Source: an uncultured virus (IMG/VR IMGVR_UViG_3300024999_000098) (taxonomy: Duplodnaviria > Heunggongvirae > Uroviricota > Caudoviricetes). Taken from it: a stretch of 64,000 nucleotides of DNA. The notes under the pieces were generated by a model. The model searched no databases. It was not told where the DNA came from and was given only the letters and a program-made list of their open reading frames with translations. The stretch lies in IMG/VR virus record IMGVR_UViG_3300024999_000098, one strand, 5' to 3'. Made by a program: the position numbers and the translations under genes. Below are positions 19,031-26,160 of this stretch, in pieces. Numbering within the stretch: position 1 is the stretch's first letter; the number at the start of each line of letters is the position of its first letter.

Positions 19031-19175
19031 GAGGGTGTATGACGCGGGACGAATTGCTGGAGATCTTGGAGCAGGTAGCAGATGGTGATCTTGATCCGGA
19101 TGAAGCTGTTGACGAGATCTGTGATGGGTGTGATTGTATTGAGTAGGCTGTAAGCAGGAAGTAGTATAGCAGAAG

Positions 19176-19214
19176 AAAGGCCCGTGCCGGTTCGATCCCA
19201 GCACGGGCCTTTTT
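19176..19214. terminator. Bidirectional terminator with T-loop-like apex
   Basis: AAA-GGCCCGTGCCGG-TTCGATC-CCAGCACGGGCC-TTTTT at convergence of the two arms. Confidence 0.8.
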
Positions 19215-22887: not shown

Positions 22888-22906
22888 GATGCTCTCCTTA
22901 AGATGA

Positions 22907-23007
22907 ATGGGCGGTCCCAGGTCCGTGTCCCTGAGATCTCCTTCCGGTCCTCCGCGTCTGCAGTCGCTCGGGCCAGTCGGCGCATTACCGATTATGCTGC
23001 CGCCCAT
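22907..23007 (-). ncRNA. Cloverleaf/tRNA-like intergenic RNA
   Basis: 8-bp closing stem ATGGGCGG/CCGCCCAT; D-arm-like GCAT-AATCGGTA-ATGC; TCTCAGG/CCTGGGA arm. Confidence 0.5.
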
Positions 23008-23011
23008 AGTG

Positions 23012-23509
23012 TTATACTGCAATCAGCCTCTCGCCGCAGCGAGTGCATTTGTATTCCTGCTTGCCAGCCACCACCCGGTTGTGCCGGATCGAGGTGAGCT
23101 CGACAGTCCTGCAGGAGCACTTGTAGGTGTGGCGCTTCTTCTCACATACCTGAACCTTGCTGACATCGTAATGATGGGTCCGCTCGGGTGAGAGGCCCGC
23201 GTCCATCATCATGCACTGCCAGCGGTGACCGTGGTTGCTGGTGCCGAAGATACAGGCTTCTACGTGATGCACTGCCTCATGGCCGGGTGTCCTTTTGACG
23301 AATTTCTCGCCTTCCTGAAAGAGAAGGTCGCGGTTCAATTTTATTTCCCTGCCGTTCGCCTGGCCAGCACATTTGCCGCGCTTGTCGAAAGTGATCGCTG
23401 GCCGGGGAATCATCCGGCAGTATTTATTCTCAAAATATCGTGTCACGCGCTCGATTTCCGCGTGACACATACTGATCAGCTGTCCTCTTAACCACTGTTC
23501 GTTATCCAT
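23012..23509 (-). CDS. SprT-like Zn metalloprotease
   Basis: AGQA, HEAVH, HG..W..M, YKCSC, H, YKCTRC. Confidence 0.85.
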   Translation of the reverse strand: MDNEQWLRGQLISMCHAEIERVTRYFENKYCRMIPRPAITFDKRGKCAGQANGREIKLNRDLLFQEGEKFVKRTPGHEAVHHVEACIFGTSNHGHRWQCMMMDAGLSPERTHHYDVSKVQVCEKKRHTYKCSCRTVELTSIRHNRVVAGKQEYKCTRCGERLIAV

Positions 23510-23511
23510 GG

Positions 23512-23886
23512 TTATCTCCTTGGAAATTTTTCCTTTACACTGTGGCTTTCCTTCCACTCCTGTGCCAAGTGATACCACTTGTCGTCACGGTCGCTCACAA
23601 CCTCCGGATGGATCTCATAACAGGTCCGGTAACCGGAATAGGATTTGAGATATTCGAAGGCCTCCTCCGGAGTGCTGAAGTAGTTTTCTGCATACTTCAT
23701 ATCGACCGATCTCCCGAAGGTGAAGTCGCTACCGTAATCCACGAAGGTCATCCGTTTTTCTCCGCATGAGTCAATTGTCCGCTCAACAACCATGCAGAGT
23801 GCGATGTCGTCTTCGCCGGTCTTGTAGATCATTGAGATGTTCCCCGAGGCCCTGTAGACCTTCTGTCCTTTCTTGAATTTCGCCAT
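23512..23886 (-). CDS. Hypothetical early protein
   Basis: GGAGG SD, MAKFKKGQKV. Confidence 0.6.
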   Translation of the reverse strand: MAKFKKGQKVYRASGNISMIYKTGEDDIALCMVVERTIDSCGEKRMTFVDYGSDFTFGRSVDMKYAENYFSTPEEAFEYLKSYSGYRTCYEIHPEVVSDRDDKWYHLAQEWKESHSVKEKFPRR

Positions 23887-23897
23887 GGTGTCCTCCA

Positions 23898-24158
23898 TTA
23901 ACTGAGTTCATCAATTTGCTTCTTCAGATCGACAATGTCCATCTGCTTTAAGTAGATCATCCTCTCAAGCTCCTCGACTTTTTCCGCCCGAGGGAGCATG
24001 TCGTGAATTACCGTCATACCGAAGCGGGTGTAGATGTCGGCTATGTCCTGTTTATACTTCATTGCCGGGTGAAACGTGTAAACCTTCTCGATAACCTTGT
24101 AATCCTCTTCCGAGACGCTGGCTATTTTTGCCCGTGCTGTGAATTCATGCATCATCAT
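23898..24158 (-). CDS. Hypothetical early protein
   Basis: AGGAG SD; 86 aa. Confidence 0.6.
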   Translation of the reverse strand: MMMHEFTARAKIASVSEEDYKVIEKVYTFHPAMKYKQDIADIYTRFGMTVIHDMLPRAEKVEELERMIYLKQMDIVDLKKQIDELS

Positions 24159-24169
24159 AATTTCGCTCC

Positions 24170-24361
24170 TTAGAAGGTGAATCCGAAGTAGACTTCCTTG
24201 TCGGCCTTGATGAAGATCTCCGTGTTGTGGTCGAACCAGCAGGTACAGGAAAAGCTCTTCGTTGCCCTGTCGTAATGGCCCTTGGTAAAGACCATCTGGC
24301 TGTTCTCTTTGCGCTTGATGAATTCGCCCTTCTTCAGGTGCCTGATCGCGATCTTATCCAT
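24170..24361 (-). CDS. Hypothetical early protein
   Basis: LKKGEF..R..V..KGHYDR..K.FSC..F.D. Confidence 0.6.
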   Translation of the reverse strand: MDKIAIRHLKKGEFIKRKENSQMVFTKGHYDRATKSFSCTCWFDHNTEIFIKADKEVYFGFTF

Positions 24362-24372
24362 AATCCCCTCCG

Positions 24373-24474
24373 TTACTTTCTATTCATTTCCCATCTGTCC
24401 CATAACCAGCAACAGAACCATACAACAGCCATCATTGCCAAAGCGATGGCGAATTCAATAAAGAATGTAAACAT
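24373..24474 (-). CDS. Small membrane peptide, first ORF of early transcript
   Basis: Hand-translated 33 aa MFTFFIEFAIALAMMAVVWFCCWLW..; GGAGG SD. Confidence 0.45.
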   Translation of the reverse strand: MFTFFIEFAIALAMMAVVWFCCWLWDRWEMNRK

Positions 24475-24490
24475 GATGCCCTCCAAAAAT

Positions 24491-24579
24491 TGCTACTCCC
24501 GGCAGGATTCGAACCTGCATCCAATGGCCTACTAAGCCAACGGCAGACCCCTTTGAACTGCCTCAAGGTGTCGGGAGCA
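24491..24579 (-). ncRNA. Non-canonical tRNA-like element
   Basis: Acceptor-like TGCTCCCG/CGGGAGTA; perfect T arm GCAGG-TTCGAAT-CCTGC; D and anticodon arms non-canonical; no encoded CCA. Confidence 0.7.
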
Positions 24580-24584
24580 TATCT

Positions 24585-24643
24585 TGTGTTTTCGACCATT
24601 CTCTGTGGTCATCGTCAGCGGTGCGAAGAAGCACCGGAACACA
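24585..24643 (-). ncRNA. Type III hammerhead ribozyme
   Basis: UGUGUUC^CGGUGC-UUCUUC-GCACCG-CUGACGA-U-GACCA-CAGAGAA-UGGUC-GAAA-ACACA: three stems plus CUGANGA/GAAA/UH core. Confidence 0.88.
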
Positions 24644-24751
24644 TATCGCCTGGCGAAGGGGCCTGATTGCCTGCTCCGCCTTAAGGGTTCTCGATTAACC
24701 TCCCCCTGTTGCTTCCGGCCTCTCTCCGGGTCGTCCTCTGCCTTCACCTAT

Positions 24752-24857
24752 ATCGTAATACCAAAACACCAGGGAGTCAAGGGTATTTTGTAATATTTTT
24801 AATATCGAGTGAAATCGGTGGAGTATGGTTGCATAAAAAGAATTGATGCTTTATATT
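24752..24857. promoter_or_regulatory. Divergent promoters (early leftward; rightward toward terminase)
   Basis: Minus: TTGACT-17-TACGAT (24780..24752); plus: TTGCAT-17-TATATT (24829..24857). Confidence 0.65.
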
Positions 24858-24922
24858 AGTAAACATGCGACCAGGAGTCTCCATAATAGTATGGGGCGGG
24901 CCTGGCGATTGGCTCTTTTTGG

Positions 24923-25231
24923 GTGATTATCATGGAGGCGACAAAAAAAGGATTACAAGTTTACCTGGGAGTTCGGCTGCTTAAGCATCTGATCAAAAAC
25001 CACCCGGCTGTCGGAGAAATGGGCATGACGGTGGAGGTCACAGACTGGGATGCATTTTTTTCTGACATAGCTAAAGCCCTGTGGACAGTGACAAAAGACG
25101 CTGACTCTCCCATGCATCGCGCCATCCATGATGCCGTCCTTTTGGCACTTGACAAGTCAAAACACGCCGCAATGGTCGATAATGACAGTGATATCCTCGA
25201 CTTGGTCGATTTTATGGAGCAGAACGCATGA
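24923..25231 (+). CDS. Hypothetical protein
   Basis: First ORF of rightward arm; start uncertain. Confidence 0.5.
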   Translation: MIIMEATKKGLQVYLGVRLLKHLIKNHPAVGEMGMTVEVTDWDAFFSDIAKALWTVTKDADSPMHRAIHDAVLLALDKSKHAAMVDNDSDILDLVDFMEQNA

Positions 25232-25590
25232 CCGGTGTCCTTCATGAGCTGAAGAAGTTATTTGTTAGGAGCCCTGGCTGGAATAAAGTCCGCAGGGCTC
25301 GTATCAAAGGCGACGGAAGTAAATGTCAGGCATGTGGTCGGACCCGCAACCTGCAGGTTCACCATGTCCTCCCCGTTCACCTGTTCCCCTGGTTGGAACT
25401 GGCCATCACCAATCTGATTACATTATGTGGCCCGTGCCACCTGTTCCTTGGCCATCTCAATCATTGGCAAGCCTATAATCCGAACATAAGGGCGCTGGCC
25501 CGGCATATGAGAACCATGATCCTCAATCGCTGGGATAAGCTCCGCACCATGGAATCTGAAGCTGATCAGGAGAAGCAATGGCAAAAGTGA
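25228..25590 (+). CDS. HNH endonuclease (Zn-binding McrA-like type, unrelated to the five AP2 copies)
   Basis: CQACG...VHH..P...NLITLCGPCH; upstream of terminase. Confidence 0.8.
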   Translation: MTGVLHELKKLFVRSPGWNKVRRARIKGDGSKCQACGRTRNLQVHHVLPVHLFPWLELAITNLITLCGPCHLFLGHLNHWQAYNPNIRALARHMRTMILNRWDKLRTMESEADQEKQWQK

Positions 25591-25756
25591 CGATTGTTGT
25601 CGAGGATTGTGAAGGTGATGAACTGGTGAGAGTCCGGATGGAATATGACCCACCGATCCCTGGTGCTGTCGCTGCTGCAGATCTTACGTGCGCTCAATTA
25701 TTGGGACTGCAGTTCATGCAGGACTATGGTATTCAACCTCAAAAAACCACAGTGCA

Positions 25757-25960
25757 ATGATGAACAAGCTCTGCTACCAGTGTGTACATTATGAGCTGAC
25801 GAGATGCCGAAGGCCTGGCGCAGATACCGTCTGCCTTGTCAATGGCTATCACACATATCCACTGTGCGAAGTTGAGCGGGAATTCGGTGCATTCCTCTCA
25901 CGCATTGTAGGAAGATGCGGCCAAGAAGGACGGTATTATGACTTCAAAGGAGATCACTGA
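25757..25960 (+). CDS. Cys-rich hypothetical protein
   Basis: CYQCVHY..C..C..ER..CG.EG.YY. Confidence 0.55.
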   Translation: MMNKLCYQCVHYELTRCRRPGADTVCLVNGYHTYPLCEVEREFGAFLSRIVGRCGQEGRYYDFKGDH

Positions 25961-26160
25961 TGCTCGATATCTATGATGACAGAAAAACTGGTACGCTGGT
26001 ACGCTGGTTGTGCGAAGCAGAGCATACCAATACCGGCGATAAACTCGTTGTGTACTGCTATCAGAACGACCCGGCAGACGTTAAGGCGATGGATGCATCC
26101 GACTTCCACCGGCAGTATCAATTGAGGCTGGATTGTGTTCTGCTGGAGGGAGTAAAATGA
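25960..26160 (+). CDS. DUF1653-like protein
   Basis: AEHTNTGDKLVVY..F pattern. Confidence 0.45.
   Translation: MLDIYDDRKTGTLVRWLCEAEHTNTGDKLVVYCYQNDPADVKAMDASDFHRQYQLRLDCVLLEGVK

What the first reader, a model, noticed from the sequence alone, without database searches (positions are those of the whole stretch)
24491..24579. Non-canonical tRNA-like element 5 nt downstream of the ribozyme
Seen: 8-bp acceptor-like stem UGCUCCCG/CGGGAGUA followed by GCA, stacked on a perfect T arm GCAGG-UUCGAAU-CCUGC. The interior is not a normal D/anticodon arrangement: GGCAG-UUCAAAGGGGU-CUGCC, then UGGC-UUAGUAG-GCCA. The 8/5 stem geometry, G after the stem, a UUCAAA loop segment and an extra arm loosely recall bacterial tRNA-Sec, but there is no proper D arm. 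It ends just before the SD of the first early ORF. Inference: a tRNA mimic (RNase P/Z processing signal, mRNA 5' stabiliser or anticodon-nuclease decoy) rather than a decoding tRNA.
Basis: partly seen in the sequence, partly recalled or inferred. Interest (0 to 1): 0.75.

Follow-up and report, generated by a model that had tools for sequence, protein, structure and literature searches.

The report
Irregular phage tRNA behind hammerhead ribozyme
A groundwater phage carries, between a self-cutting RNA and its first early gene, a misshapen tRNA gene with a perfect upper half and a swollen middle; it probably no longer decodes and at most marks where host tRNA-trimming enzymes cut the message, and its closest relatives do without it.

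Summary
The element is real, on the minus strand (G1 = 24578, A73 = 24494), and not chance (0 of 500 shuffled windows). It is a tRNA gene with a 7/5 acceptor/T domain, not a Sec-like 8/5 one: the eighth pair is U-1:A73, also seen in 68 of 108 ordinary tRNAs with this acceptor. The 'extra arm' sits exactly where an anticodon arm belongs (7-nt loop, AGU; 104 of 200,000 shuffles). What is odd is a 31-nt D region with two crossing helices, no U8, an anticodon nearly absent from bacteria, only 3 of 7 Thr identity elements and no encoded CCA. It lies in a 1.6-kb swappable cassette with its own type III hammerhead; both sister alleles have another hammerhead directly before the ribosome site and no tRNA-like part. 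No homologue was found, so no covariation test was possible. Best reading (0.45): a non-decoding, tRNA-derived cut signal for RNase P/Z; a decaying pseudo-tRNA (0.3) is not excluded. Irregular tRNAs and t-elements are published, so this is a new variant of a known kind.

The parts
24752..24780 (-). Sigma-70-like promoter (TTGACT, 17 nt, TACGAT) of the leftward early operon
   Evidence: 9 of 12 match; 2 sites found, 1.1 expected, so weak alone; both hexamers kept while the spacer diverges in L279, and -35 plus 5 of 6 of -10 kept in L308
24651..24745 (-). Leader conserved in sister phages; its 3' end is the cassette boundary
   Evidence: 89-90% identity over 24651-25000 with L088 and L308; fold no better than shuffles (z -0.2)
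24585..24643 (-). Type III hammerhead ribozyme; predicted cut between 24637 and 24636; core CUGACGA 24618-24612 with one extra U (24611) before stem II
   Evidence: descriptor finds it once in the window, 0 in 100 shuffles; folds as drawn; below Rfam cut-offs; activity not tested
24572..24578 (-). Acceptor stem 5' strand, G1-G7 (U-1 at 24579)
   Evidence: sequence; pair probabilities 0.98-1.0 for six pairs, 0.25 for G7-C66
24541..24571 (-). Expanded D region, 31 nt, A at position 8; helix S1 24568-24565/24553-24550 and crossing helix S2 24562-24558/24546-24542
   Evidence: two folds within 0.7 kcal/mol; pseudoknot-compatible pair in 89 of 20,000 shuffles (post hoc)
24524..24540 (-). Anticodon-type arm: 4 Watson-Crick pairs plus U.U, 7-nt loop 24535-24529 with U33, AGU at 24533-24531, A37
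   Evidence: 104 of 200,000 shuffled interiors; ARAGORN below threshold reads Thr(AGU), score 98.3 with a shifted acceptor
24519..24523 (-). 5-nt variable loop
   Evidence: sequence
24502..24518 (-). Perfect T arm
   Evidence: sequence; T arm plus 3' acceptor 23-mer is shared exactly with 23 IMG/VR loci, 20 of them ARAGORN tRNAs at that site, 12 Arg
24494..24501 (-). Acceptor 3' strand and discriminator A73 (24494)
   Evidence: sequence
24485..24493 (-). 9-nt trailer beginning GCA in place of CCA, then a U run
   Evidence: CCA is encoded in 88 of 170 matching phage tRNA tops
24373..24484 (-). SD (24484-24480) and first early ORF, 33 aa (24474-24373), no Pfam family
23016..24650 (-). Swappable cassette: hammerhead, tRNA-like element and five ORFs (33, 63, 86, 128 aa and a SprT-like protein)
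   Evidence: no match to L088 between the homology blocks ending at 23015 and starting at 24651; PF10263 SprT-like, E 3.8e-10

Best explanation
A tRNA gene that has lost its decoding features but kept its acceptor/T domain, acting as a t-element at the head of the early transcript. Steps: (1) the early promoter fires and the type III hammerhead cuts at 24637/24636, leaving a 58-nt leader on the tRNA-like fold (fold shown; cutting inferred). (2) Host RNase P recognises the 7/5 top half and cuts before G1 (inferred; U-1 and G1 are present, bacterial RNase P tolerates large truncations and CCA-less substrates per PMC4919922 and PMC1874595 passages). (3) With no encoded CCA, RNase Z or another 3' nuclease cuts after A73, freeing an 85-nt tRNA-like RNA and an mRNA that starts 9 nt before its SD (inferred). 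The element is accessory: sister phages manage with the hammerhead alone (shown).
For: Top half flawless while every departure from a working tRNA lies outside it: no U8, 31-nt D region, U27.U43, A34, GCA for CCA. AGU is among anticodons missing from most bacteria and phages (PMC8007984 passages). Only 3 of 7 bacterial Thr determinants are present (C2-G71, G35, U36; not G1-C72, G4-C69, G5-C68, G34; Table 1 of PMC9976931). It fills the gap between hammerhead and SD where sister alleles have only 5-7 nt. The interior is more structured than shuffles, which fits a kept fold better than long decay. Precedent: t-elements set mRNA ends through RNase P/Z (PMC1920247 passages); hammerheads flank phage genes (PMC3088659).
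Against: Absent from 2 of 2 distinct sister alleles (L088/L279/L306 and L308). No homologue in any search and no variant in 4 runs, so no covariation supports selection. The element was noticed because its top half is perfect, so the asymmetry is partly ascertainment. A 5'-phosphate made by RNase P/Z would undo the 5'-OH hairpin end that the hammerhead gives (inference). In fold S1 the G7-C66 pair is weak (0.25), and no canonical D-loop/T-loop elbow is evident. Host unknown (uninformative).
Confidence: 0.45

Rival explanations
1. A decaying pseudo-tRNA: a hammerhead-plus-tRNA unit was captured with the cassette and is now drifting, with no present role; any processing is incidental.
For: Not kept in sister alleles; trailer is one change from CCA; the interior matches no tRNA class by sequence (36-518 of 1000 shuffles score as well against nine profile HMMs; best pairwise score 25 is reached by 22 of 60 shuffled queries); hammerheads ahead of real tRNA genes exist in other phages (7 of 55 loci); the published irregular tRNAs with enlarged D loops were labelled 'pseudo?' (supplement of PMC5389517).
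Against: No broken pair in 12 top-half pairs; three perfect interior helices; the hammerhead of the same cassette is intact.
Confidence: 0.3
2. The released RNA is the product that matters: a tRNA-shaped decoy made at the start of infection that soaks up tRNA-targeting defence nucleases, toxins or synthetases, possibly offering two anticodon-like loops.
For: First RNA product of the early operon, in the most variable cassette (three different gene sets in three alleles); both hairpins begin with Y-U-N-N-N-R loops; CCA could be added after RNase Z (PMC1874595 passages).
Against: No target known; no expression data; searches for printed decoy cases gave no phage example in their listings.
Confidence: 0.12
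3. A working but atypical tRNA-Thr (AGU, perhaps edited to IGU), matured by host RNase P, RNase Z and CCA addition.
For: Canonical anticodon arm and variable loop; ARAGORN picks AGU in 149 of 150 runs even with the D region shuffled; A8 occurs in ARAGORN-called phage tRNAs; two CCA-ending atypical Thr(UGU)-like phage genes, L360 and L368, share the first 7 interior letters, and L368 shares 6 of 7 loop letters; 82 of 170 matching phage tRNA tops also lack encoded CCA.
Against: 3 of 7 Thr determinants; rare anticodon; the link to L360/L368 is not significant overall (anchored 7-mer chance about 0.02); best single in-silico deletion scores 113.5 but 25 of 150 shuffled D regions do as well; the published E-loop tRNA1 was not charged by E. 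coli ThrRS.
Confidence: 0.1
4. One reading: no D arm, first hairpin as anticodon arm, second as long variable arm, akin to tRNA-Sec or to D-armless phage tRNAs.
For: First hairpin non-random (371 of 200,000); five D-armless phage tRNA-like genes with the same acceptor have similar linker and variable-region lengths and also end in AU before the T arm (L009, L215, L222, L223, L228); in the MFE the second arm extends to 2 nt from the T stem, as a class II variable arm would.
Against: Loop is 11 nt, not 7; no sequence likeness to the D-armless set (518 of 1000 shuffles score as well, 5 training sequences only); Sec features not met.
Confidence: 0.08

Closest known systems
t-elements of plant mitochondria (PMC1920247, passages read)
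   Same: tRNA-like fold with a perfect T arm and non-canonical cloverleaf next to an mRNA 5' end; proposed RNase P/Z cut signal
   Different: bacteriophage early operon; paired with a hammerhead; no mapped RNA end here
Irregular tRNAs of Mukai et al. (PMC5389517: abstract, passages, supplement rows): E-loop tRNA1 and 7/5 tRNA2 with 38- or 64-nt D loops
   Same: extra sequence in the D region, A8, odd anticodons including ANN, doubtful decoding
   Different: E-loop tRNA1 is 8/4 with U73 and lies in polycistrons from soil metatranscriptomes; the long-D-loop entries keep U8 and a normal D stem; none of three short motifs of this element occurs in that supplement
Type III hammerhead ribozymes flanking phage and prophage genes (PMC3088659, sections 8 and 11 part 1 and passages)
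   Same: core, position ahead of early genes; the sister alleles show the U3-A8 covariant described there
   Different: extra U between A9 and stem II, not among the variants named in the text I read (figures not seen); followed by a tRNA-like fold
Theta ribozymes next to phage tRNAs (PMC10879173, abstract and passages)
   Same: small self-cleaving ribozyme beside a phage tRNA
   Different: HDV-like and on the 3' side, cutting at the tRNA end; here a hammerhead 58 nt upstream of G1; 'hammerhead' occurs 0 times in that paper's main text
Bacterial tRNA-Sec (features from PMC7609411 passages)
   Same: about 90 nt; a UUCAAA stretch; an eighth pair can be drawn
   Different: no 6-bp D stem with 4-nt loop, no 7-nt UCA loop, eighth pair is the common U-1:A73

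Membership tests
bacterial tRNA-Sec (8/5) | 13-bp acceptor domain with G73 | tested here: inconclusive
   An 8/5 register with G can be drawn, but the eighth pair is U-1:A73, found in 68 of 108 ordinary tRNAs with this acceptor; 7/5 with A73 is the simpler reading
bacterial tRNA-Sec (8/5) | 6-bp D stem with 4-nt loop | tested here: not met
   No such arm follows the acceptor in any fold
bacterial tRNA-Sec (8/5) | UCA anticodon in a 7-nt loop | tested here: not met
   The UUCAAA stretch lies in an 11-nt loop
bacterial tRNA-Sec (8/5) | Score at Rfam tRNA-Sec cut-off | tested here: not met
   No family at gathering score; best clan match is tRNA at 20.5 bits, one lower same-clan match was left out unnamed
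canonical tRNA-Thr | Cloverleaf called by ARAGORN or Rfam at default threshold | tested here: not met
   98.3 of 100 only with a shifted acceptor
canonical tRNA-Thr | Anticodon arm with 7-nt loop, U33, purine 37, 4-5-nt variable loop | tested here: met
canonical tRNA-Thr | U8 and a normal-sized D arm | tested here: not met
   A8; 31 nt from position 8 to 26
canonical tRNA-Thr | Bacterial Thr identity set | tested here: not met
   3 of 7 determinants of Table 1 in PMC9976931
canonical tRNA-Thr | Aminoacylation and decoding | not testable with these tools
   needs experiment
t-element (RNase P/Z cut signal) | Intact T arm stacked on an acceptor-like stem | tested here: met
t-element (RNase P/Z cut signal) | Lies at the edge of an mRNA | tested here: met
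   A73 is 9 nt before the SD of the first ORF
t-element (RNase P/Z cut signal) | RNA ends coincide with the element's ends | not testable with these tools
   only DNA contigs could be laid
t-element (RNase P/Z cut signal) | Fold kept by compensatory change in relatives | tested here: inconclusive
   no homologue or variant found; sister alleles lack it
E-loop tRNA1 (PMC5389517) | 8/4 acceptor/T structure with U73 | tested here: not met
   T stem is 5 bp; rows read
E-loop tRNA1 (PMC5389517) | Extra loop between acceptor and D stem | tested here: inconclusive
   true in fold S2 (9-nt linker), not in fold S1
type III hammerhead (upstream part) | CUGANGA and GAAA core, three stems, NUH site | tested here: met
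   one extra U before stem II
type III hammerhead (upstream part) | Self-cleavage | not testable with these tools
   needs in vitro transcription

The most novel reading that the evidence does not exclude
The D region is a selected structure, an H-type pseudoknot (S1 plus S2) or a two-state switch, built into a tRNA scaffold. The phage would then release, as the first product of infection and by a hammerhead followed by host RNase P/Z, a tRNA mimic with a knotted D domain that either gates its own processing (and so the 5' end of the early mRNA) or acts as a decoy with two anticodon-like loops. Basis: crossing 4- and 5-bp helices with feasible loop lengths in 89 of 20,000 shuffles, two folds within 0.7 kcal/mol. 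I met no such tRNA architecture in searches or in the Mukai supplement rows seen.
Probability: 0.1. Interest if true: 0.75.

Novelty: new variant of a known kind. Interest (0 to 1): 0.38.

Why it matters
If processed, it is a compact case of a phage chaining its own ribozyme to host tRNA-maturation enzymes to shape the first early transcript, with natural sister alleles that lack the element as ready controls. It also shows that tRNA finders miss phage tRNA-derived genes with enlarged D regions. As a singleton without covariation or RNA data it does not yet change what is known.

Tried and rejected
No whole genome is held for the window. No RNA holder listed; this says nothing on expression. 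Relatives of the 63-aa ORF (3 loci) have no such RNA upstream. Of 71 terminase relatives only L088 reaches across the site with DNA homology. Kinship with L360/L368 was attractive but failed its control. A hidden normal D arm behind one insertion failed its control. L347/L484 and L345/L365/L264 are other irregular tRNA-like genes before an SD, not homologues. attP remnant: rejected because the 5' acceptor strand is present; I did not scan all window proteins for an integrase. Host assignment through SSB was uninformative. RNAfold pairs 5 leader bases with the trailer and first SD base; too weak to build on. Earlier findings by place and by sequence: none.

Full report
Setting. The window is a tailed phage: terminase subunits, major head protein, helicase, exonuclease and SSB by PHROGs; no close GenBank phage (best terminase identity 47%). 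Thirteen public runs hold part of the 600 bases around the finding, from groundwater and soil. The element lies on the minus strand at the head of a leftward run of small genes, after a sigma-70-like promoter at 24780-24752 whose hexamers are kept in sister phages while the spacer changes.

The observation. The quoted letters are there. Contigs of X5 and X6 span the element with no difference; X8 and X10 cover parts with none (4 runs, 2 studies). A T arm with an in-register 7-bp acceptor occurs once in the window and never in 500 shuffles; a type III hammerhead descriptor matches once and never in 100 shuffles. ARAGORN finds no tRNA in the window; Rfam gives nothing at gathering score and a partial tRNA match of 20.5 bits.

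The top half is that of ordinary phage tRNAs. The 23 letters of T arm and 3' acceptor occur exactly in 23 IMG/VR loci, 20 with an ARAGORN tRNA at the site, 12 of them Arg. Among 117 distinct matches with this acceptor type, 108 were ARAGORN tRNAs and 68 of those can also pair U-1 with A73. The '8-bp' stem is therefore no sign of tRNA-Sec; G1 is 24578 and A73 is 24494. The other Sec features listed in PMC7609411 (passages; section 7) are not met.

The interior. The second hairpin has four Watson-Crick pairs, a 7-nt loop with U33 and A37, and a 5-nt variable loop before the T stem; 104 of 200,000 shuffled interiors achieve this, and ARAGORN chose AGU in 149 of 150 runs in which the D region was shuffled. 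So the simplest reading is a full tRNA gene with anticodon AGU and a D region of 31 nt. Forcing either gives -35.8 or -35.1 kcal/mol; a pseudoknot-compatible pair of this size arises in 89 of 20,000 shuffles, a post hoc test. By sequence the interior belongs to no class: against nine profile HMMs built from tRNA interiors in my loci, 36 to 518 of 1000 shuffles scored as well. A resemblance to atypical Thr(UGU)-like genes L360 and L368 ranked first and sixth of 1086 interiors but 22 of 60 shuffled queries reached the same score. A single in-silico deletion can raise the ARAGORN score to 113.5, but 25 of 150 shuffled D regions do as well.

Decoding is unlikely. It lacks U8; AGU is reported missing from most bacteria and phages (PMC8007984 passages); 3 of 7 bacterial Thr determinants are present (PMC9976931 Table 1 and passages). 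The missing CCA is not decisive: 88 of 170 matching phage tRNA tops encode it, and RNase P and RNase Z handle CCA-less precursors in B. subtilis (PMC1874595 passages; PMC10424219 passages). Bacterial RNase P tolerates large truncations and cuts non-tRNA substrates, phage RNAs among them (PMC4919922 passages).

Relatives. L088 is 87% identical over 24651-26123 and resumes at 23015. In it, in L279/L306 (same allele) and in L308 (a third allele whose leader matches the window's) the leader is followed by a different type III hammerhead with the U3-A8 core and then, 5-7 nt later, the SD of a different first gene. The hammerhead slot is conserved in 3 of 3 alleles; the tRNA-like part is in 1 of 3. 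A T-loop pattern search of the whole 27.5-kb L088 record gave one hit, far from this site. The element belongs to a 1.6-kb cassette with five ORFs, one SprT-like.

How it probably works. Hammerhead cleavage would leave a 5'-OH, hairpin-capped RNA with a 58-nt leader on the tRNA-like fold; RNase P and then RNase Z would cut out an 85-nt RNA and leave the mRNA starting 9 nt before its SD. All cutting steps are inferred. The flawless top half and the structured interior favour a kept function (0.45 cut signal, 0.12 released decoy) over decay (0.3), a working tRNA (0.1) or the D-armless layout (0.08). These overlap little but none is proven.

Known or new. t-elements (PMC1920247 passages), irregular tRNAs with extra D-region sequence (PMC5389517 abstract, passages and supplement rows), hammerheads around phage genes (PMC3088659 sections 8 and 11 part 1, passages) and theta ribozymes beside phage tRNAs (PMC10879173 abstract and passages) cover each ingredient. 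Searches listed no paper on hammerheads placed before phage tRNAs or tRNA-like folds; the library lacks most subscription papers. Earlier notes of this scan report similar arrangements in other phages; they are unchecked leads and pointed me to two of the papers. Verdict: real, a new variant of a known kind, a singleton; interest 0.38.

Noticed in passing
L029, L030, L032, L035, L050, L075, L076 (IMG/VR): Type I hammerheads whose stem I pairs with the 5' acceptor strand of a tRNA, so that cleavage falls exactly at base 1; 7 of 55 loci, with an ARAGORN tRNA-Tyr(GUA) starting at the cut in 6. A natural ribozyme substitute for RNase P, the 5' counterpart of theta ribozymes; not met in searches or in earlier findings. 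Probably more interesting than the finding itself.
   Followed up: partly
window 22896-23008, minus strand: Intercistronic multi-arm RNA closed by an 8-bp stem just before an SD; 93% identical in sister phage L088 although the genes on both sides differ; no Rfam match at E up to 5; fold z -1.6 to -1.9.
   Followed up: partly
window 24651-24745, minus strand: Leader conserved in all three alleles up to the cassette boundary; no Rfam match, fold no better than shuffles.
   Followed up: partly
window about 19174-19214: Strong two-way terminator-like hairpin between convergent operons (z -5.5) whose apex resembles a T loop.
   Followed up: no
L009, L215, L222, L223, L228: Phage tRNA-like genes with no D arm, a normal Arg(UCU) or Ile(UAU) anticodon arm right after a 6-9-nt linker, and a 20-23-nt variable region containing a D-loop-like UGG; missed by ARAGORN.
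   Followed up: partly
L360:801-873 and L368:801-873: CCA-ending atypical Thr(UGU)-like genes with A8 and a 3-nt linker, below ARAGORN and Rfam thresholds.
   Followed up: partly
L347, L484; L345, L365, L264: Irregular tRNA-like genes of about 95 nt directly before an SD; L347 scores 23.8 bits on Rfam tRNA-Sec (cut-off 47); L345 has two long arms and no D arm.
   Followed up: no
L088/L279/L306 and L308, just after the leader: Type III hammerhead with the U3-A8 covariant core in the same slot as the window's hammerhead; three alleles carry three different first genes.
   Followed up: yes
L006 about 1330-1530: Long structured RNA ending in the same T arm and 3' acceptor strand, no ARAGORN call.
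   Followed up: no
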